Made by a program: the position numbers and the translations under genes. Below, piece by piece: positions 13,605 to 55,847 of a stretch of 64,000 bases of DNA. The stretch lies in contig VGDZ01000006.1 of the NCBI GenBank assembly GCA_016869515.1, positions 12,592-76,591 of the forward strand. Reading direction: 5' to 3'. The notes beneath the pieces were generated by a model that was not told where the DNA came from, ran no database searches, and saw only the letters and a list, made by a program, of their open reading frames with translations. Source of the stretch: Alphaproteobacteria bacterium (GTDB lineage: Bacteria > Pseudomonadota > Alphaproteobacteria > VGDZ01). Position 1 is the first letter of the stretch. Every line of letters starts with the position of its first letter.

Positions 13605-13738
13605 AGGGCATGATCGATCTGTCTTGAACCATAGAGTTCAAGACAGATCGCGGATCATGCCCTCGTATCCTGCTCTGGACCGCGATTCACGGTTCATAGG
13701 GAATCGCGGCCGTGATTCCCAATGAACCGATCGCGGTC
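13605..13738. repeat. MITE/REP-like intergenic repeat, copy A (two hairpin modules)
   Basis: Module 1 is an inverted repeat GGGCATGATCGATCTGTCTTGAAC...GTTCAAGACAGATCGCGGATCATGCCC. Module 2 is a nested palindrome GACCGCGATTCACGGTTCATAGGGAATCGCGGCCGTGATTCCCAATGAACCGATCGCGGTC. The same element recurs at four other sites. Confidence 0.85.
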
Positions 13739-14144
13739 TAGGGCCGGACAACGACCGAGCCGACCATGCCCTCCTGTTGCCAATGCGGGCCGCAAAGATA
13801 GCCATGCGTCCCCGGCGGCAAGTGTCGACATGCTCGCCGCCGAAGAGGCGGGCCGATTCCTCGCGTCCGGCGGCCTTGAACCAGACGCTGTGCGACGTCC
13901 GCCGATCGACATTGACGAAGCGCAGCGTGGTGCCGGGCGCGACCGCGATGCTGAGCGGGCAGAAGCTGTGCTTGTACATGGTCACGACCGGAACGCCGGC
14001 GGCGGAACTGGGTTGGCCGAAAACCTCCCGGTAGCGCTGCTCGGCCTCGGCGCAAATCTCGCGCTGCAGCGCGGCCTTGTCGGCCTGGGCGGCGGCGCCC
14101 ATCGCCATCAGGCACCCGACCACGGCCGCGATCGCCCGCTCCAT
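13738..14144 (-). pseudogene. cupredoxin (amicyanin/pseudoazurin-like blue copper protein) with an apparent single-nucleotide frameshift
   Basis: The N-terminal part (signal peptide MERAIAAVVGCLMAMGAAAQA, then ...HSFCPLSIAVAPGTTLRFVNVDRRTSHSVWFKAAG) is in one frame. The C-terminal copper-ligand motif GTHGYLCGPHWQQEGMVGSVVV is in another frame. The junction lies at ~13805-13835, in a G4/C4 run. Confidence 0.55.
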
Positions 14145-23659: not shown

Positions 23660-23731
23660 GCGGCCGGGGAACCCCGAGGAGACTAGCGGGGCTTCAGCCT
23701 AGACCATGATCGACGTCAATGGAATTGCCTA

Positions 23732-23866
23732 GACCGCGATCGGTTCATAGGGAATCGCGGCCGCGATTCCCTATGAACCGTGAATCGCGGTCCAGAGCAG
23801 GATACGAGGGCATGATCCGCGATCTGTCTTGAACTCTATGGTTTAAGACAGATCGATCATGCCCTA
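23732..23866. repeat. MITE/REP-like repeat, copy B (inverted relative to copy A); a short fragment also at ~24011-24034
   Basis: Contains the perfect 38-nt palindrome GGTTCATAGGGAATCGCGGCCGCGATTCCCTATGAACC plus the GGGCATGATCCGCGATCTGTCTTGAAC module. Confidence 0.85.
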
Positions 23867-45166: not shown

Positions 45167-46342
<1,176 letters not shown>

Positions 46343-46353
46343 GGCAGGGCGGC

Positions 46354-48360
46354 TCAGCCGATCCGGAAGCGATTGCGAAGGCCGAGGCCGATCAGGAACA
46401 GCAGGACGCCCGAGACGATCTGCTGCGACAGAACCCACAGGCGCATGCCGAAGGGAAGGTCCAAGTCGCCGTCGAAATCCCGCAGCCCCAGGTTCTTGGT
46501 GACGGTCTTGTAGCTTTCTCCCGCCGGCCCGGCGATCGGGACGGAATTGAGGAGGGCGAAATCGATCAGCGCCTCGGCTTTCTTGGCATTCTCGACATCG
46601 TGCGCGATCAACGGGCTGGGCGGGAATTGGCCGGCGCCATGAATGGCGATGCCCCCCACCGTAAGCAGGACGATCATGGTCGCTATTCGGTTTTCCCAAC
46701 TCCACTTGCCGCGCGTAAAGGGCGGCCGGCGGACGAATGGGACATACACCGCGACAAGGGACAGAGCCCACAACACGCCCCAGTGATCGAACATGGCGAT
46801 GTTTTTCGAGTCGTAAAATGCGGCAAAACCCAGGATAACGGCACCGAGCCATAGCATCGGCCGCATCACCGACCGTCCGCAATCCGAAAGCAGCCAATAA
46901 ATGCCCAGCATGAAACTGGACGCGATCAGCGCGCCATGGCGCCCGCTGGCATGGAACGCCCCGCGCTCGGCGTGCTTTTCCAGCACGAACAGATCGCGCG
47001 CCGTATCGTGCGCCGCGTTCGTTTCCATGATCGCCCGCAGGCGCCGGATGCGGGTCAGTTTCAAACTGTCCTTGGTCCAGTCGATCCGCATGCCCTTGGG
47101 AATGAACCAGGGCAGATCTTTGGCCGGGTCCCTTGCCCGAAACGTGGTCCCGACCATGTCGATGCGGTGAAGATTCTCGGCATCGCCGAACTCGGGCGGC
47201 TGCTTGAACACCGCATCGCGAAAACTCAACGCGCCGTTCAGTTTCCTGCCGCTGAAATTGATCGTCCCGTTGAATCGGGCGCCAGTGAAATCCATGTCGG
47301 GCAGCGTGCGATACGATTCGGAATCCTCACGCCGCATGATCTCTTTTTCCCATGCGTCGTTGCCAGTGGGATTTTCCCGGCGCATGTTCTCGACAAATTG
47401 CTTCCACTCCGATTCGGTCCAGCCGCGAAACTGGCAATTGTGAAATTCGGCGGAATTGAATCGGGCAAAACCAAGAAATATGGTTCCGGAGAAATCGGCG
47501 TAGTCGCCGAACCGCGCGCCGGAGAGATCGGCTCCATTGCCGAACCGCGCGCCGGAGAGATCGGCGAGATTGCCGAACTTCGCGCCGGAGAGATTGGCCC
47601 GTAAGTCGAATTGCGCGCCGGAGAGATTGGCGCTGTCACCGAACCGCGCGCTGGAGAGACCGGCCCTAAAGCCGAACCACGCGCCGGAGAGATTGGCTCT
47701 TTCGCCGAACTGCGCGCCGGAGAGATCGGCGAAATTGCCGAACTTCGCGCAGGAGAGATTGGCGTCGTCACCGAACTGCGCACCGGAGAGATCGGCACCG
47801 TCACCGAACTGCGCGCCGGAGAGATTGGCACTATAGCTGAACCGCGCGCCGGAGAGATCGGCCTCATGGCCGAACTGCGCGCCGGAGAGATTGGCCGCAA
47901 AGCCGAACTGTGCGCCGGAGAGATTGGCCCATACGCCGAACTGTGCGCCGGAGAGATTGGCCGCAAAGCCGAACTGTGCGCCGCGGAAACGGATTGCCTC
48001 ATTCTCGGTCCGTCGAAAATCGACACTAGATAGATTGACCGGTTTGAATAGAGCGAGGCGGGCGGCCTCGTCGCTGCTTTCCAGACCGAAGTGCTCGCTC
48101 TTATGCAGGATGTCGGAAAGTCGGGTGTTTTTTGCCAGGGCGGCTTCGATTATTGGTAGCGCTTCGTCATCCGTAAGTTTTCGCCACTTGCGGCCCGCTC
48201 TTATTAGGCTCGTATCTTCGATCTCCTGTCTGGCTTGCTCCGTCCCCTTCATCCACTCGTTCCACGTCTCCACCCCCAGCCGCGCCAAAGCGAGCCAGAG
48301 TTTTTGCGGCATCTGGTCGCTGGTGTCCTGGTCCGGGGGCGGCGGGGCGGGCGCGCTCAT
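46354..48360 (-). CDS. pentapeptide-repeat protein with C-terminal multi-TM domain
   Basis: 668-aa protein. N-terminal ~110-aa domain, then ~17 near-identical 10-residue units (A[ND]LSGA[QR]FGx, two pentapeptide coils each), a ~200-aa linker, then ~5 TM helices. Visibly lower GC than its surroundings. Confidence 0.85.
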   Translation of the reverse strand: MSAPAPPPPDQDTSDQMPQKLWLALARLGVETWNEWMKGTEQARQEIEDTSLIRAGRKWRKLTDDEALPIIEAALAKNTRLSDILHKSEHFGLESSDEAARLALFKPVNLSSVDFRRTENEAIRFRGAQFGFAANLSGAQFGVWANLSGAQFGFAANLSGAQFGHEADLSGARFSYSANLSGAQFGDGADLSGAQFGDDANLSCAKFGNFADLSGAQFGERANLSGAWFGFRAGLSSARFGDSANLSGAQFDLRANLSGAKFGNLADLSGARFGNGADLSGARFGDYADFSGTIFLGFARFNSAEFHNCQFRGWTESEWKQFVENMRRENPTGNDAWEKEIMRREDSESYRTLPDMDFTGARFNGTINFSGRKLNGALSFRDAVFKQPPEFGDAENLHRIDMVGTTFRARDPAKDLPWFIPKGMRIDWTKDSLKLTRIRRLRAIMETNAAHDTARDLFVLEKHAERGAFHASGRHGALIASSFMLGIYWLLSDCGRSVMRPMLWLGAVILGFAAFYDSKNIAMFDHWGVLWALSLVAVYVPFVRRPPFTRGKWSWENRIATMIVLLTVGGIAIHGAGQFPPSPLIAHDVENAKKAEALIDFALLNSVPIAGPAGESYKTVTKNLGLRDFDGDLDLPFGMRLWVLSQQIVSGVLLFLIGLGLRNRFRIG
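47497..47990. repeat. tandem 30-bp direct repeat array (about 16 units) inside the pentapeptide-repeat CDS
   Basis: Plus-strand consensus GCCGAACTGCGCGCCGGAGAGATTGGCnnn repeated head-to-tail at high identity. Coordinates approximate. Confidence 0.8.
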
Positions 48361-48454
48361 GGCGCCATTTCAAGCCGCGCAACCTATGCGCGCAAGAAGA
48401 ATCTGGCAGCTATGCGCCGACCGGCGGACCCGGCTTTCGGGCGACGGGGCTAGG

Positions 48455-48585
48455 CCGCGATCGATTCATAGGAAATCGCGGCCGCGATTCCCTATGAACC
48501 GTGAATCGCGGTCCGGAGCGGGATGCGAGGGCATGATCCGCGATCGGTCTTGAACCCAGTCGTCCAAGGCCGATCAATCATGCCC
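48455..48585. repeat. MITE/REP-like repeat, copy D (copy-B orientation)
   Basis: GATTCATAGGAAATCGCGGCCGCGATTCCCTATGAACCGTGAATCGCGGTCC...GAGGGCATGATCCGCGATCGGTCTTGAAC. It overlaps the 3' end of vapC. Confidence 0.8.
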
Positions 48586-48994
48586 AAGGATCGATCACCG
48601 CGATGCCGCAGCCGGTGTAGTCGGCGGCGTTGCGGGTGGCGACCGCGGCGGCATGGGCGCGGGCGATGGCGGCGATCTGGCAGTCGATCTGGCCGATCGG
48701 CCGACCGGCGGCGCGGCGCCCGGCGGCGATGACGGCATAGGCGCGCGCGGCGGCGCGGTCGAAGGGCAGGATGCGGTCGCGGAAATCCTGTTCCAGCATG
48801 GCCTCGATCGCCTCGGCCAATGCGCGGCGCCTGCGGCCCGCCGGCAGGATGGCGACGCCATGGCGCAATTCGACCTCGCTGAGCGTCGTCAGCCAGATCG
48901 CGTCCCCGTCCTGGGCCGAAAGCCAGGCCGCGACCGGGGGCGCCGGCGCCGGCCGGAGCATTTCCGAGACCACATTGGTATCCAGCACGATCAT
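48578..48994 (-). CDS. vapC: type II toxin VapC (PIN domain ribonuclease)
   Basis: 138 aa from the internal Met (MIVLDTNVVSE...). PIN acidic residues present. Overlaps vapB by 4 nt. Confidence 0.85.
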   Translation of the reverse strand: MIVLDTNVVSEMLRPAPAPPVAAWLSAQDGDAIWLTTLSEVELRHGVAILPAGRRRRALAEAIEAMLEQDFRDRILPFDRAAARAYAVIAAGRRAAGRPIGQIDCQIAAIARAHAAAVATRNAADYTGCGIAVIDPWA

Positions 48995-49245
48995 CGCCGC
49001 CGGCCCTTGAACCGGGGCGGGGCGCGCATCGGCGCGCGCGCCGGCAGCTCCAACTCGACTCCGCCCAAGGGCGCGATGCGGGCACGGATCGCCGCCGCCA
49101 AATCGCGCGGGGCCGCGCCCCGCCCGACGGCGCGGCGAAGGATTTCGCGGGCTTCCTCTTCCATCGAGCGGCCGCATTCGGCCGCCCGCACCCTCAGGCG
49201 CCGCTTCAGCCCGTCGTCAAGATTGCGGATGGTGATGCTGGCCAT
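48991..49245 (-). CDS. vapB: type II antitoxin VapB (FitA/ribbon-helix-helix-like)
   Basis: 84 aa from the internal Met (MASITIRNLDDGLKRRLRVRAAE...). The classic antitoxin-before-toxin pair. Confidence 0.75.
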   Translation of the reverse strand: MASITIRNLDDGLKRRLRVRAAECGRSMEEEAREILRRAVGRGAAPRDLAAAIRARIAPLGGVELELPARAPMRAPPRFKGRRR

Positions 49246-49367: not shown

Positions 49368-49748
49368 TCAGCGCCGGCGCGGGGCGAGGTCGTCGAGCGC
49401 GACCCCGAGCGCGCGAGCCAGGGCGGCGAGGGCGCGCATCGATCCGGGCTTTTTGCCGGTCTCGATCTCGGACAGATAGGTGGGCGCGATCTTGGCCTTG
49501 GCGGCAAGCACCCGGGCCGACAGCTTGCGCCGCTGCCGCCACAGCCGGACCGGGCTTTCGCCCGCCGCCAGGCGCTTCACCATCTGCCACGGCAGGAACT
49601 CGGTCTCGCCGGCGGCAAGGCGCGCATCCAGCGCCCGGACATCGGCCCGGTCGCGCGCTTCGTCCAGCGCCTCGATCAGCGCCTCGTAATCGTCCCGCGC
49701 CAGGGTCACGGTCTTGGCGGTGCGGGCCAGCGGCCGGATGGCGTTCAT
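49368..49748 (-). CDS. XRE-family HTH antitoxin (HigA-like)
   Basis: 126 aa from the internal Met. HTH reads LSARVLAAKAKIAPTYLSEIETGKK. Located downstream of, and overlapping, a RelE/ParE toxin gene. Confidence 0.75.
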   Translation of the reverse strand: MNAIRPLARTAKTVTLARDDYEALIEALDEARDRADVRALDARLAAGETEFLPWQMVKRLAAGESPVRLWRQRRKLSARVLAAKAKIAPTYLSEIETGKKPGSMRALAALARALGVALDDLAPRRR

Positions 49749-50002
49749 CGATAAGCCTCCCCGCGCGGAGCGATCTTGAGCACCCGCAACGTGGCGCTCG
49801 ATCGCTCGATCCGATAGATCGCCCGCCAATCGCCCAACCGCAAGCGATAGCAGTCCTTCATGCCGGCCATCGGCGCGACATTGGCGTGCAGGGCGAAAGG
49901 CGCTTCGGCGATGGCTTCGAGACGTCGCATCATGCTGGCCTGCATCTTGGGCGGCAGATCGAGCAGCCGCCTCGCGGCCGCGCGTTCGATCTCCAATTGC
50001 AT
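49745..50002 (-). CDS. RelE/ParE-family toxin (HigB-like; the toxin gene precedes its antitoxin)
   Basis: 85-aa protein with ...KDCYRLRLGDWRAIYRIE...LRVLKIAPRGEAY, as in RelE/ParE cores. Confidence 0.75.
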   Translation of the reverse strand: MQLEIERAAARRLLDLPPKMQASMMRRLEAIAEAPFALHANVAPMAGMKDCYRLRLGDWRAIYRIERSSATLRVLKIAPRGEAYR

Positions 50003-52677: not shown

Positions 52678-52794
52678 GGCGAGCGATCTGAGTCCGGAAG
52701 GCGCGGCGCAGAAATCGGGCCGCGAAGGTGGACGGCCTCAATAGACCAACTCGGCGGCATCGGCAAAGCCAAAATGCGAGGCGGCGCTGGCCTA

Positions 52795-52898
52795 GGGGAT
52801 GTTCGATCGGTATTGAACCATAGGGCCCAAGACAGATCGTGAATCATGCCCTCTTGTCCCGCTCTGGACCGCGACTACCTATGAACCGATTGCGGTCC
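52795..52898. repeat. MITE/REP-like repeat, copy E (degenerate)
   Basis: TTGAACCATAGGGCCCAAGACAGATCGTGAATCATGCCCTC...CTGGACCGCGACTACCTATGAACCGATTGCGGTCC. Confidence 0.7.
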
Positions 52899-52918
52899 AG
52901 CCCCCTGACTCGATCGGT

Positions 52919-54337
52919 TCACCGCCAGCCGAGCTGCTGGGGCGTCGCCCAGCAGGCGTGGAATCCGGCCGGCACGCGCTGCGGGATTTCGAGCCGCACC
53001 ACCGGCCCCAGCGCCAGGTCGCGGGCCTCGAACACCTGGACCTCGGAACCGAGATCCCGGGAGCGCACGGCCAGCGTCACCAGCCAGCCTTCGTCCTCGC
53101 GCACGGCGTCGGGATGGGGAACGAACTGGGCCTCCGAGAACATCAGCCCCGATGTGGTCCAGGCCTCGGACTGGCCGGTGTCGAGGTCGTATTTCAACAG
53201 GCCGGGATGATAGAAGGCCGGCCGGTTGCGGCACAGCATGGCAAAGCCGTAGCGGGTCGGGCGCCCGACCCGCGCCGGATCGACGCAGGGAAACTCGGCG
53301 TTGATCTTGGGATCGAGGTAGAACTCGTTGGCGGTCCCGGTGGCAAGATCGAACTCCCAGCGATAGAGCCGCGCATCCATCTCCAGTCCCGCGATCATGG
53401 CGGCGAAGCGCTCGCAGTCGATCGCGCCCTGGGCGTCGCGCGGCGGCTCGTAGCGGCAGCCGACCATGATCACGCGCTCGCCTTCCTCCCAGGCGTTGAC
53501 GACGTGATAGAGAAAGCAGGGCTCGACCTCGAACCAGCGGATCGCGCCGCCATCGCCATGGCGCGGCAGGATACCGAAGCGGGTCGCGATCTCGGGATGA
53601 AAGCGCAGCTTGTGGCGCCCGGCCTTCAGCGCCTCCGCATCGTGAAACAGCGACAGATCGTGCAGGATCGAGAAGCGCTCGGTGATCGCCATGTCGTGCG
53701 GCAGCCGCGGGCCGGGCAGGTCGATCGGCGTGGCGTGGGTCAGCTTGCCGTCCGCACCCAGCACGCCATGGTGCATGTAGGGCGCCTCGACGCCGTAGCC
53801 GAAGATCATCATCTCGCCGCTGACGGGATCGACCTTGGGATGGGCCGAGATCCTGAACGGCGCGTCGAGCGGCCCGCGCGTGGCGAGCGTCGTCGGGTCG
53901 AGCGCGTAGGAGCGTCCGCACAGATACCAATTCGCCACCAGCCGCCCGCCGTGCATGGCGACGTCGGTATTGGCGGTATCCTTGAGCGGCATGTCCGGCC
54001 GATCGCGCCGCGGCGGGTCCATCACGCCCCGCCACAGCGCGCGGCCGGCGGCCTCTTCCTCGGCCAGCCCGGCGGTCCGGACATAGCGGTTGCGATATGA
54101 GGCCTTGCCGTCGCGGAAGCTGACGGCGTGGATCATGCCGTCGCCGTCGAACCAATGATGCCGTCCGGGCGGATCGAAGCGCGGATTGGGGCCGTTGCGG
54201 AAATAGGCCCCGGCCAGCTCGTCGGGCACGTCGCCCTCGAGCACGCGCAACTCGGCAACGTCGATTTCGGTCTCGATCGGCGCGTAGGCGCCTTCGATAT
54301 AGCGATCGAGCGGCCCCGAAACTGCTGGGCGGGTCAT
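52919..54337 (-). CDS. carotenoid cleavage dioxygenase family protein (RPE65/lignostilbene dioxygenase-like)
   Basis: 472 aa from the internal Met (GGAGG RBS). Four conserved His positions and the CCD beta-propeller pattern (...FDGDGM..., HD, FHAHW-like). An alternative start lies 27 nt upstream. Confidence 0.88.
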   Translation of the reverse strand: MTRPAVSGPLDRYIEGAYAPIETEIDVAELRVLEGDVPDELAGAYFRNGPNPRFDPPGRHHWFDGDGMIHAVSFRDGKASYRNRYVRTAGLAEEEAAGRALWRGVMDPPRRDRPDMPLKDTANTDVAMHGGRLVANWYLCGRSYALDPTTLATRGPLDAPFRISAHPKVDPVSGEMMIFGYGVEAPYMHHGVLGADGKLTHATPIDLPGPRLPHDMAITERFSILHDLSLFHDAEALKAGRHKLRFHPEIATRFGILPRHGDGGAIRWFEVEPCFLYHVVNAWEEGERVIMVGCRYEPPRDAQGAIDCERFAAMIAGLEMDARLYRWEFDLATGTANEFYLDPKINAEFPCVDPARVGRPTRYGFAMLCRNRPAFYHPGLLKYDLDTGQSEAWTTSGLMFSEAQFVPHPDAVREDEGWLVTLAVRSRDLGSEVQVFEARDLALGPVVRLEIPQRVPAGFHACWATPQQLGWR

Positions 54338-54380: not shown

Positions 54381-55847
54381 TTACATCGCGCGGACCTTGA
54401 CCAGGAACTCGTCGACCTGGCCGGACAGCACCGTGGCGTCCTTGGCCAGCTGGTTGGAGGCCTGCAGCACCATGCCGGCGTTCTGGCCGGTTTCGCTCGA
54501 GGCTTGGGTGACCGACTGGATGTTGGAGGCCACTTCGCGCGTCGCCGCGTTCTGCTGCTCGACCGCCGAGGAGATGGCGGTGGTGATCTCGGAGATCTTG
54601 CCGATGGTGTCCGAAATGCCCTTGATCGACACCACCGTGGTGCGGGTCGATTCCTGGATGCCGCCGATCTGCTGGGCAATCTCCTCGGTCGCCTTGGCGG
54701 TCTGGTTGGCCAGGGTCTTGACCTCCGAGGCGACGACGGCGAAGCCCTTGCCGGCCTCGCCGGCGCGAGCCGCCTCGATGGTGGCATTCAGCGCCAGGAG
54801 GTTGGTCTGGCCGGCGATGTCGTTGATCAGCTTGACCACGTCGCCGATCTTGTTGGCCGCTTCGGCCAGGCCGGCGACCAGCTTGTTGGAGCGTTCGGCC
54901 TCTTCGACCGCGGTGCGCGCGATCTGCGAGGACTGGGTGACCTGGCGGCTGATTTCGCCGACCGAGGCCGAGAGCTCTTCGGTCGCCGAGGCCACCACCG
55001 CCGACTGCTTGTTGGCCTGCTCGGCCGCGGCGGCAAGGCTTTGCGAGGTGGCTTGCAATTCGGTCGCGGCGCTGGACACGGTCTCGACCACCTTCTTGAC
55101 CGAGGATTCGAAGTCGTTGGCCAGCTGCACGTTCTGGGTCACCACCGACCAGCTCAGCACCGGGCCGAGATACTGGTTGTTGCGGTCGTTCAGCGCCGAA
55201 ACCCGCAGATCGAGGGTCTCCGGCCCGACCTTGATCTTGGCGGCATGCGGCAGGTTCTTGGGGTCGCCCAGGATGCGGCGCTGGTGCATCGGGTTCTTGT
55301 GGAACACGTCGACCGAGCTGCCCAGGATCTTGTCGGCCGAGACCGGCAGGTATTGCTGCAGCTTGCGCAGGGTCTCCAGGCTGGTGCGGTTGATGTAGTT
55401 GATCTTGAAGTCGGTGTCGCAGCTCATGATGTTGATCGGCAAGTTGTCGATCATCTGCATCAGCCGGTCGTTGTCGTTTTCCTTCTTGACCGTGTCGGTG
55501 ATCAGCGACCAAACCACCATCGGCGCGACGTAGCGCGAGCCTTCCATCAGCGCGCTGACGTGCAAGTCCAGCCATTCGCCGCCGATGGTGATGCGCGCCT
55601 TGTGCGGCAGGTTGCGCGGATCGGCCAGCATGCGGCGCTGGTGCGCCGGGTTCTTGTGGAAGACGTCGATCGTCGTGCCGATCAACTGATCGGCCTTCAC
55701 CGGTAAAAGATGCTCGATCTTGCGCAGCGTCTCGATCGTGGCCCGGTTGGCGTAATCGATCTTGAAGGTCTGCAGGTCGCAGGTCATGACGTTGACAGGC
55801 AAGTCATGGACCATCTGCTGGAAACGATTCGAGCGCGAACCGAACAT
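54381..55847 (-). CDS. cytoplasmic methyl-accepting chemotaxis protein with two tandem N-terminal PAS-like domains
   Basis: 488-aa protein with no TM helices. Two paralogous ~110-aa domains, each containing DVFHKNP.HQRR, then an MCP signalling domain with methylation heptads. Confidence 0.9.

What the first reader, a model, noticed from the sequence alone, without database searches (positions are those of the whole stretch)
46354..48360. Low-GC gene for a pentapeptide-repeat beta-helix fused to a five-helix membrane domain, built from ~16 near-identical 30-bp DNA repeats
The protein has an N-terminal ~110-aa domain. A strikingly regular run follows, about 17 copies of A(N/D)LSGA(Q/R)FGx, longer and more uniform than Qnr/MfpA-type proteins. 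After a ~200-aa linker, a C-terminal domain carries about 5 TM helices. At the DNA level the repeats form a head-to-tail 30-bp array (~47497-47990) with very high identity. Such arrays are prone to slipped-strand expansion and contraction, so the protein length could vary between cells or strains. The gene is visibly AT-richer than its neighbours, with no other family signature. It sits with MITE copies and toxin-antitoxin modules in a small accessory islet. Its function is unknown. A DNA-mimic beta-helix tethered to the membrane is an unusual architecture and could be a membrane-anchored nucleic-acid or envelope-interacting factor.
Basis: partly seen in the sequence, partly recalled or inferred. 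Interest (0 to 1): 0.7.

Follow-up and report, generated by a model that had tools for sequence, protein, structure and literature searches.

The report
Repeat beta-helix fused to channel-like domain
This is a real 668-residue membrane protein with a cytoplasmic rod of seventeen 11-residue repeats and a membrane part that most resembles HalA, the ion-channel effector of the Hailong anti-phage system; it belongs to a large, unnamed family rather than being a one-off.

Summary
The ORF (46354-48360, minus strand, 668 aa) and its repeat array are real. The DNA period is 33 bp (11 aa), not 30 bp. The units are about 79% identical, not near-identical. The repeats match Pfam Pentapeptide_3, and AlphaFold models a confident beta-helix with 22 residues per coil.

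The "linker" and "TM domain" are the most conserved part of the protein. They form an unnamed C-terminal module found in 1,854 50%-identity clusters, almost always C-terminal and usually behind the same repeats.

No HalB-like or other conserved partner gene exists. Contexts range from conserved housekeeping slots in Beijerinckiaceae to plasmid, transposon and prophage-like regions, often beside toxin-antitoxin pairs. Repeat number differs between syntenic orthologues (7-19).

DNA mimicry is not supported, because the net charge is near neutral. Best reading: a stand-alone HalA-like cation channel gated through a cytoplasmic beta-helix sensor. Its biological role is unproven.

The parts
46354..48360 (-). 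Whole CDS, 668 aa plus stop. Identical to an NCBI protein from an Alphaproteobacteria MAG.
   Evidence: P0001, 100% identity.
47995..48360 (-). N-terminal helical domain, aa 1-122. It carries the family capping motif (KLWLALARLGVETWNEWMK, aa 20-38, matching the family's FFLxLARxGxxxWNxWR). Relative to most homologues it has an insertion of about 65 aa.
   Evidence: Alignment A1. AF2 helices H12-104, pLDDT 60-88. The N motif recurs in the representatives.
47434..47994 (-). Array of 17 units of 33 bp / 11 aa (aa 123-309), consensus A(N/D)LSGAxFGxx. Predicted right-handed beta-helix with two units (22 aa) per coil. Positions 1, 3, 6 and 8 form the conserved core; positions 2, 4, 7, 10 and 11 vary.
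   Evidence: DNA. (PF13576). (pLDDT about 92, strands every 22 aa). (position entropies).
47296..47433 (-). Helical connector, aa 310-355, poorly conserved.
   Evidence: H315-328, H334-342, low pLDDT.
47140..47295 (-). Second, short pentapeptide beta-helix (aa 356-407), containing the conserved FxxARFxGxxxFSGRxF...F.QPPxF motif. It is present even in the shortest family members.
   Evidence: PF00805 hit at aa 353-377. pLDDT 82-96..
46960..47082 (-). Highly conserved cytoplasmic helix pair (aa 427-467). The family consensus is WTxDS..RLRxLRKxAEETKNHDLERDLYIEERKAERG. Inferred coupling or gating element.
   Evidence: Invariant columns in A1, A2, A3 and A4. pLDDT 84-95.
46813..46932 (-). M0-GRSxxRP-M1 hydrophobic hairpin (aa 477-516). 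This is the region that gives the weak sequence match to the HalA model.
   Evidence: NF051894, HalA positions 236-278.. Charge distribution.
46630..46785 (-). Window-specific insertion of two extra hydrophobic helices (aa 526-577) joined by a basic loop (RRPPFTRGKWSWENR).
   Evidence: Alignment A4. M1-to-filter spacing is 112 aa against a family median of 52. pLDDT below 60.
46519..46587 (-). Candidate pore helix and filter-like loop (aa 592-614, AKKAEALIDFALLNS-VPIAGPAG). The family consensus is AVxMxAxGNA-VPFVGPLT.
46357..46446 (-). Last TM helix M2 (aa 639-661) and basic C-terminal tail RNRFRIG (family consensus LALRNYFKIK).
   Evidence: pLDDT 82-87. phrog_25690 matches this end.
48410..48590 (.). 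MITE-like nested-palindrome element that occupies most of the 217-bp region upstream of the gene. Other copies lie near 13690, 23741 and 52870.
   Evidence: No Rfam match.

Best explanation
The gene encodes an inner-membrane protein of a large, unnamed family.

Inferred anatomy:
- The C-terminal module of about 190-240 aa is a HalA-like, pore-loop-type cation channel: an interfacial helix M0, outer helix M1, a pore helix, a filter-like loop VPFVG(P/A)LT, and inner helix M2. By analogy with HalA and KcsA/NaK it is presumably a tetramer.
- Everything N-terminal is cytoplasmic: a helical cap, a rod of about 8.5 coils built from 11-residue Pentapeptide_3 units, a second short beta-helix, and a very conserved charged helix pair lying directly before the membrane.

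Proposed working:
- The helix pair and short beta-helix couple the rod to the gate.
- The rod displays variable residues (unit positions 2, 4, 7, 10, 11) that bind an unknown ligand, probably a protein.
- Gain or loss of that ligand opens the pore and dissipates membrane potential.
- There is no HalB-like partner, so sensing would be built into the same polypeptide.
- The most likely role is a stand-alone conflict or stress effector (abortive-infection-like).

Shown here: the anatomy, the existence of the family, the predicted folds, the absence of a partner gene, and repeat-number variation. Inferred: oligomeric state, ion conduction, gating by the beta-helix, and the biological role.
For: Fold and sequence link to HalA:
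- Foldseek, an independent method, also ranks 9nyi_A first of 350,542 chains: E 0.062, probability 0.63. The next hit has E 1.1 and probability 0.05.
- The HalA structure was released in 2025, so to my knowledge it post-dates AlphaFold2's training data and the model cannot have been copied from it.
- Independently, the NCBIfam HalA model is the family hit by the most members (10 of 72, best E 1.5e-4). The hit is always on the M0-M1 region and collinear with HalA's C-terminal positions 236-278 of 338.

Conservation and topology:
- The module is the most conserved part of the family, with an invariant P/G loop motif.
- K/R-rich segments fall on the predicted cytoplasmic side and acidic loops on the periplasmic side. 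This holds only if M0 stays on the cytoplasmic side, as I recall NaK's M0 helix does.
- Most members have a conserved Cys pair in the loop predicted to be periplasmic.
- The module is nearly always C-terminal, behind variable lengths of the same repeats.

Context:
- No conserved neighbour gene in about 50 loci.
- Accessory-type contexts include a MOBH plasmid with ISL3 and GIY-YIG genes, transposases with a STAND NTPase, a Prim-Pol element, a terminase/DUF5131 region, and recurrent ParE/ParDE/VapBC neighbours.
- The module is shared with PHROG families: phrog_25690 is hit by 21 of 72 members.
- Tandem paralogues, frameshifted copies and varying repeat number suggest fast turnover.
- HalA's known behaviour (tetrameric channel, depolarisation when its ligand is lost) is taken from the review PMC13434031.
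Against: - All links to HalA are weak individually. The NCBIfam score is 16.5 bits against a cut-off of 250.
- Family profiles do not reach the HalA PDB sequence even at E<=10.
- The modelled protein is the divergent window copy. Its inserted helices are low-confidence. It lacks the Cys pair, and its filter-like motif is altered (VPIAGPAG).
- No multimer model or conductance evidence exists.
- PADLOC gives no hit.
- In Beijerinckiaceae the gene sits in conserved slots between housekeeping genes: PRTase and L,D-transpeptidase, or UvrD and an MCP. That also fits a physiological channel.
- No match in 50,697 deposited phage genomes.
Confidence: 0.5

Rival explanations
1. It is a physiological ion channel. 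The same channel-like module serves ordinary ion or osmotic homeostasis or signalling. The cytoplasmic beta-helix acts as a regulatory or scaffolding domain, with no role in conflict with phages or mobile elements.
For: In Beijerinckiaceae and relatives the gene occupies stable chromosomal slots flanked by housekeeping genes: PriA, PRTase, DUF308, L,D-transpeptidase, a sigma-54 regulator and LysRS in one slot, and UvrD and an MCP in the other. No partner gene, and no PADLOC hit. The fold evidence for a channel is the same as for the main explanation.
Against: Many copies are in plasmid, transposon or prophage-like contexts or beside TA modules. Frameshifted copies occur in several species genomes. 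There are tandem paralogues, and the sensor region varies widely in length. The window copy has foreign-looking composition and no close relatives.
Confidence: 0.22
2. The membrane part is only an anchor, and the beta-helix is the working part: a membrane-tethered DNA mimic or a scaffold for nucleic-acid or envelope factors.
For: Strong Pentapeptide_3 match and a confident beta-helix model. From my own knowledge, some pentapeptide proteins (MfpA, Qnr) mimic DNA. Other Pentapeptide_3 proteins are fused to TIR or KAP NTPase domains (P0023, P0024), which suggests the repeats can act as adaptor modules.
Against: The membrane module and the helix pair before it are far more conserved than the repeats, with invariant polar and loop motifs that a simple anchor would not need. 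Short family members keep the module but almost no repeats. The repeat region is near neutral, and its charge is not conserved across the family. Qnr models score 11 bits against a cut-off of 450.
Confidence: 0.12
3. The array is a contingency locus (this does not exclude the other explanations). Slipped-strand or recombinational gain and loss of 33-bp units changes rod length within populations and so tunes function.
For: The array is head-to-tail, with exact repeats of 39 bp (offset 66) and 28 bp (offset 33). Unit number differs between syntenic orthologues, 7-12 and 7/10/19, and across the family, 0 to about 19.
Against: Units are only about 79% identical, with most third positions and the two variable codons differing. 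That points to old, diverged repeats rather than recent expansion. Every change is in frame, so there can be no on/off switching. No strain-level data exist: the 90% cluster has a single member and there is no close relative.
Confidence: 0.15
4. It is a decaying or neofunctionalised foreign copy. The window gene is a divergent, horizontally acquired family member that no longer works like the typical members.
For: It has at most 39% identity to anything else. It has a unique two-helix insertion, has lost the conserved Cys pair and has an altered filter-like motif. Its GC and GC3 are lower than its neighbours'. Frameshifted copies elsewhere show the family is often lost.
Against: The 668-codon ORF is intact, and nearly all invariant family residues are kept. 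The inserted hairpin preserves topology and obeys the positive-inside rule.
Confidence: 0.06

Closest known systems
HalA, the membrane effector of the Hailong anti-phage system (PDB 9nyi; NCBIfam NF051894)
   Different: No HalB nucleotidyltransferase partner is present. Where HalA has its cytoplasmic region (described in the review as an oligo-dA-binding 'crown'), this family has pentapeptide-type beta-helices plus a family-specific helix pair. Sequence similarity is far below the family cut-off (16.5 against 250 bits). No PADLOC hit.
Pentapeptide_3 repeat proteins (Pfam PF13576)
   Same: Strong HMM match (E 8.5e-31, 106 bits) and a predicted right-handed beta-helix.
   Different: Compared with the canonical pentapeptide fold as I recall it (four 5-residue repeats, 20 aa per coil), the unit here is 11 aa (5+6), giving 22 residues per coil. 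The array is unusually regular and is fused to a membrane module that has no Pfam model.
Two-TM pore-loop tetrameric cation channels (NaK, KcsA, MthK pore)
Qnr / MfpA / AlbG DNA-mimic pentapeptide proteins
   Same: Both have a beta-helix built from A(D/N)LXX-type repeats.
   Different: From my own knowledge, Qnr, MfpA and AlbG are small, soluble, acidic dimers with 5-residue periodicity. Here the protein is a 668-aa membrane protein, the repeat region is nearly neutral, and the Qnr models are far below cut-off.
HglK-type cyanobacterial membrane pentapeptide proteins (recalled from memory, not tested)
   Same: They combine TM helices with a pentapeptide-repeat domain.
   Different: As I recall, HglK has N-terminal TM helices and a C-terminal repeat domain, the opposite order, with no channel-like module. 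No sequence comparison was run here.

Membership tests
Pentapeptide_3 (Pfam PF13576) | HMM score above the gathering threshold | tested here: met
   106.4 bits against a cut-off of 27, E 8.5e-31, 6 stretches.
Pentapeptide repeat fold (canonical Rfr type) | 5-residue periodicity, with four repeats (20 aa) per coil of a right-handed quadrilateral beta-helix | tested here: not met
   The period is 11 aa. The AF2 strand pattern repeats every 22 aa. Foldseek of the full model gives only weak generic beta-helix hits, with SopA at rank 8. It is a beta-helix, but a 5+6 variant.
Qnr/MfpA DNA mimics | Match to Qnr-family models | tested here: not met
   QnrA scores 11.2 bits against a cut-off of 450.
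Qnr/MfpA DNA mimics | Strongly and consistently electronegative beta-helix surface | tested here: not met
   Net charge is -3 over 187 aa. The family ranges from -12.7 to +11.4 per 100 aa. Sequence-level charge only; surface electrostatics were not computed.
HalA (Hailong effector) | NCBIfam NF051894 equivalog score at or above cut-off | tested here: not met
   16.5 bits against 250. 10 of 72 relatives hit it weakly, best E 1.5e-4.
HalA (Hailong effector) | Fold of the channel subunit | tested here: inconclusive
Hailong system | Adjacent HalB nucleotidyltransferase gene | tested here: not met
   The window neighbours are Asd, PIN/RHH and ParE/HTH. No neighbour is conserved across about 50 loci.
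HalA / pore-loop channels | Homotetramer with a central ion-conducting pore | not testable with these tools
   Only single-chain prediction was available, and there is no experiment.
Pore-loop cation channels (Ion_trans_2 type) | Pfam channel-domain hit and a TVGYG-like selectivity filter | tested here: not met
   No Pfam hit on aa 420-668. The loop motif is VPFVG(P/A)LT in the family and VPIAGPAG in the window.
Pore-loop cation channels | M1, pore helix, M2 fold | tested here: inconclusive
Known anti-phage defence systems (PADLOC-DB 2.0) | Any model hit | tested here: not met
   0 families at E<=10.

The most novel reading that the evidence does not exclude
It is a single-polypeptide 'guard' version of Hailong. 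A HalA-like depolarising channel has replaced the free oligo-DNA ligand and its synthetase with a covalently attached, rapidly length-varying beta-helix. The helix acts as a bait or decoy for phage proteins. Binding or cleavage of the bait opens the channel and aborts infection. Gain and loss of 11-residue units, together with the variable surface positions, would tune specificity. If so, this would define a large, unrecognised family of one-gene defence channels (more than 1,800 clusters at 50% identity).
Probability: 0.15. Interest if true: 0.85.

Novelty: new variant of a known kind. Interest (0 to 1): 0.55.

Why it matters
If the C-terminal module really is a HalA-like channel, several things follow.
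- HalA-type depolarising effectors would not be confined to the two-gene Hailong system. They would form a much larger family (1,854 clusters at 50% identity, no Pfam or NCBIfam name) in which a different, built-in cytoplasmic sensor replaces the DNA-binding crown.
- That gives a directly testable candidate for a one-gene membrane-depolarising effector.
- It gives a function to a large set of "pentapeptide repeat-containing" or "hypothetical" proteins in soil Hyphomicrobiales.
- It offers a natural series of rods of 0 to about 19 units with which to study how a beta-helix length ruler couples to a channel gate.
- The 5+6 (11-residue, 22 per coil) Pentapeptide_3 helix has no close solved structure: a PDB sequence search found nothing better than E of about 0.09.

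If the channel reading is wrong, this is an ordinary uncharacterised membrane repeat protein.

Tried and rejected
- **Sister-genome test for the islet.** I scanned metagenome contigs with the neighbouring Asd protein. The best relatives are at most 77% identical, and none shares any other window gene within the flanks. Presence or absence of the gene in sister genomes could not be assessed.
- **Strain-level repeat-number comparison.** The 90% cluster has one member. A search with the non-repeat half found nothing above 39% identity.
- **Sequence-level confirmation of the HalA link.** Family profiles A2 and A4, and a single-sequence query of the M0-M1 region, found no HalA chain in PDB sequences at E<=10. 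I had no HalA sequence, so no profile-profile comparison could be run.
- **Primary paper and library gaps.** The primary Hailong paper (PMC12360457) is not held. The afdb50 fold library was not available.
- **Defence libraries.** PADLOC gave no hit.
- **Phage genomes.** tblastn of a typical member against 50,697 phage records found nothing.
- **Conserved partner genes.** Clustering of flanking ORFs over 41 loci found only lineage-specific synteny with housekeeping genes.
- **DNA-mimic idea.** Rejected on charge and on the Qnr model scores.
- **Colicin E5 and DUF6162 Pfam hits.** E 0.12-0.3, ignored as noise.
- **Literature.** Searches for PF13576/Pentapeptide_3, and for pentapeptide plus channel plus abortive infection, found nothing relevant.
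- **Rfam.** Only two tRNAs in the whole window.
Full report
**1. What is in the sequence**

The ORF at 46354-48360 on the minus strand is intact and encodes 668 aa. The identical protein is deposited as "pentapeptide repeat-containing protein" from an Alphaproteobacteria MAG (P0001).

Tandem Repeats Finder reports an array at 47486-47983 with period 33 bp, 15.1 copies, 79% matches and score 454. Periods of 66 and 99 bp score 535 and 534. The repeat finder shows 13 in-register copies spaced exactly 33 nt apart.

In protein register there are 17 units of 11 residues at aa 123-309. Fourteen are well formed as A(N/D)LSGAxFGxx and three at the ends are degenerate. The DNA period is 33 bp, not 30 bp, and the copies are not near-identical:
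- The 14 core units average 78.6% pairwise identity (range 64-94%).
- The longest exact repeats are 39 bp at offset 66 and 28 bp at offset 33.

The gene has lower GC than its surroundings: 0.609 against 0.678 for the window and 0.69-0.73 in the flanks. Its GC3 is 0.75, against 0.89-0.92 in the adjacent asd and glycosyltransferase genes. The dip covers essentially this gene only.

**2. The repeat domain**

Pfam assigns the repeats to Pentapeptide_3 (PF13576, E 8.5e-31). A second short stretch at aa 353-377 matches PF00805.

AlphaFold2 with an 11-sequence alignment models aa ~125-300 as a beta-helix with pLDDT of about 92. The strand pattern recurs every 22 residues, so two 11-residue units make one coil. 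As I recall, the canonical pentapeptide fold has 20 residues per coil.

Across 1,250 units from 113 family proteins, positions 1, 3, 6 and 8 (A, F/L, A, F) are conserved. Positions 2, 4, 7, 10 and 11 are highly variable.

The repeat region is almost neutral, at -3 over 187 aa. In the family its charge runs from -12.7 to +11.4 per 100 aa. Qnr models score 11 bits against a cut-off of 450. The DNA-mimic idea therefore has no support.

Foldseek of the full-length model gives only weak generic beta-helix matches. A PDB sequence search gives nothing better than SopA at E of about 0.09.

**3. The family**

Full-length homologues are 31-41% identical and share all parts of the protein:
- an N-terminal helix motif FFLxLARxGxxxWNxWR;
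- the 11-residue repeats;
- a short second beta-helix with an "ARFxQPPxF" end;
- a strikingly conserved helix pair, WTxDS..RLRxLRKxAEETKNHDLERDLYIEERKAERG;
- a hydrophobic hairpin joined by DYGRSxxRP;
- a loop motif GNAVPFVG(P/A)LT(I/L)(D/E);
- usually a Cys pair;
- a last TM helix ending LALRNYFK(I/L)(K/R).

A profile of the C-terminal module (A2) was searched exhaustively against 1.84 billion cluster representatives. It found 1,854 clusters at E<=1e-3, 315 at E<=1e-10 and 98 at E<=1e-30, with the module almost always at the C-terminus. Most long representatives also have the N motif and 11-residue spacing.

Members form a continuum. The shortest are proteins of about 200-300 aa with only the short beta-helix and the module. 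The longest have up to about 19 units. None has a Pfam assignment on the module.

The window protein is an outlier:
- its non-repeat parts are at most 39% identical to anything in 5.8 billion proteins;
- it has an insertion of about 65 aa in the N-domain;
- it has a unique insertion of two extra hydrophobic helices between M1 and the loop motif (spacing 112 aa against a median of 52);
- it has no Cys pair;
- its loop motif is altered to VPIAGPAG.

Only one copy of the module occurs in the window.

**4. What the membrane module looks like**

With a 72-sequence alignment, the model of aa 345-668 reaches mean pLDDT 75. The short beta-helix scores 94-96, the helix pair and first hairpin 84-95, and the last helix 82-87. 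The window-specific insertion stays low.

Foldseek against 350,542 chains also puts 9nyi_A first, at E 0.062 and probability 0.63. The next hit has E 1.1 and probability 0.05. The TM-score is only 0.22.

Independently, the NCBIfam HalA model gave a weak hit on aa 480-521, matching HalA positions 237-278 of 338. When all 72 aligned relatives were scanned, HalA was the family matched by the most members: 10 of 72, best E 1.5e-4, ahead of every pentapeptide model.

Against this, family profiles do not reach the HalA PDB sequence, and every score is far below family cut-offs.

The distribution of K/R residues fits a specific topology. The pre-M0 segment (+3), the M0-M1 loop (+1), the loop of the inserted hairpin (+4) and the C-tail (+3) would be cytoplasmic. 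The M1-Ia, Ib-P and filter-M2 loops (-1, -2, -2) would be periplasmic. That corresponds to M0 (interfacial) - M1 - pore helix - loop - M2. To my knowledge this resembles the layout of NaK. It also places the family's Cys pair in the periplasm.

According to a review (PMC13434031), HalA is a homotetrameric channel with a cytoplasmic crown. Oligo-dA made by HalB keeps it closed, and it depolarises the cell when that DNA is lost.

**5. Context**

In the window the gene is convergent with asd, with 11 bp between the two stop codons. On the other side lie two toxin-antitoxin pairs (PIN + FitA-like RHH, and ParE + HTH) and then a RidA-family gene. A MITE-like nested palindrome fills most of the gene's 217-bp upstream region. 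It has three other copies in the window.

Among 36 loci from species-representative genomes, nearly all are Hyphomicrobiales: Methylocella, Methylocapsa, Beijerinckiaceae, Rhodoplanes, Pseudolabrys and Xanthobacteraceae. Two synteny groups appear:
- PriA - DUF308 - PRTase - [gene] - (ParE) - L,D-transpeptidase - sigma-54 regulator - LysRS;
- UvrD - [gene] - MCP.

Other copies lie in clearly accessory settings:
- a Prim-Pol/AAA_25 element beside another pentapeptide gene;
- a region with a small terminase subunit, DUF5131 and an HTH gene;
- transposases together with a STAND NTPase;
- a ParDE pair directly upstream of the closest relative;
- a mobilizable Pseudoalteromonas plasmid, next to ISL3, GIY-YIG, DUF4942 and UmuDC genes.

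No neighbour is conserved across lineages, and nothing HalB-like is present. Twenty-one of 72 members match phrog_25690, including at the C-terminal helix. No deposited phage genome matched, and PADLOC is silent.

Syntenic orthologues differ in unit number: 7-12 in one slot, and 7, 10 and 19 in the other. Two genomes have tandem paralogues. Four species genomes carry frameshifted copies, among them the complete Methylocapsa polymorpha RX1 genome, and a fifth copy is split by an apparent internal stop.

**6. Interpretation**

The best-supported reading is a stand-alone, HalA-like pore-loop cation channel. Its cytoplasmic side carries a beta-helical rod of 11-residue repeats as a built-in sensor or regulator. 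The conserved helix pair and short beta-helix would couple the rod to the gate.

The anatomy, the family, the predicted folds, the lack of a partner gene and the repeat-number variation are shown here. Tetramerisation, conduction, gating and the biological role are inferred.

A conflict or stress-effector role is favoured by the accessory contexts, the TA neighbours, the rapid turnover and the HalA analogy. The stable housekeeping slots in Beijerinckiaceae keep a physiological-channel role alive. The anchor-plus-DNA-mimic reading is the least supported.

**7. Novelty**

I found no description of this architecture or module in the searchable literature, in Pfam, or in NCBIfam. It is best classed as a new variant of a known kind: a HalA-type channel module with a different, fused sensor and no HalB. 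The classification is provisional, because the homology rests on weak but concordant evidence.

Noticed in passing
window 13690-13729, 23741-23780, 48462-48501, 52870-52888 (extended elements about 13640-13800, 23690-23850, 48410-48590, 52780-52940): A MITE-like nested-palindrome repeat of about 110-150 bp with four copies in the window (7 half-site matches against 0.01 expected). The copies at 48410-48590 and 52780-52940 are in inverted orientation (84-nt arms, 77% complementary). They bracket the two TA modules, the RidA gene and a GT2 gene. No Rfam family matches.
   Followed up: partly
window 48578-49245 (-) and 49368-50002 (-): Two adjacent type II toxin-antitoxin pairs: PIN/VapC with a FitA-like RHH antitoxin, and a ParE toxin with an HTH (XRE-type) protein. 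ParE or ParDE modules also sit next to family members in L015, L016, L024, L036 and L122/L123.
   Followed up: partly
L037 6969-8604 (Methylocapsa polymorpha RX1 complete genome); also L018, L028, L038, L006: Orthologues of the gene are disrupted. In L037, L018, L028 and L038 (two shifts) the tblastn match changes reading frame inside the gene. L006 aligns in one frame but the ORF calls split it, implying an internal stop. These could be real pseudogenes or assembly indels.
   Followed up: partly
L015 4594-8181 and L016 5427-8720: Tandem paralogous copies of the family gene sit side by side in the same chromosomal slot. Their repeat numbers differ (9 and 11; 16 and about 4), and the upstream copies have different C-terminal ends.
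   Followed up: no
P0023 and P0024: Other Pentapeptide_3 proteins are fused to KAP-family NTPase/AAA domains (P0023) or to TIR domains (P0024). The same repeat type is therefore combined with domains typical of conflict systems.
   Followed up: no
L002 6333-7574 (-): A second, different pentapeptide-repeat protein (413 aa; PF00805 and PF13599) is encoded divergently, right next to the family member P0005, inside a Prim-Pol/AAA_25 element.
   Followed up: no
window 46342-46354: asd and the repeat gene are convergent, with only 11 bp between their stop codons and no terminator-like structure. The last ~15 residues of the window's Asd are not covered in most alignments to relatives, which typically end at query residues 344-346 of 361. 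That could mark an insertion junction.
   Followed up: no
window 55246-55410 and 55603-55767: A 165-nt direct repeat (74% identity, 357 nt apart) lies inside the PAS/MCP chemoreceptor gene at 54381-55847. It is probably an internal duplication of the signalling-domain coiled coil.
   Followed up: no
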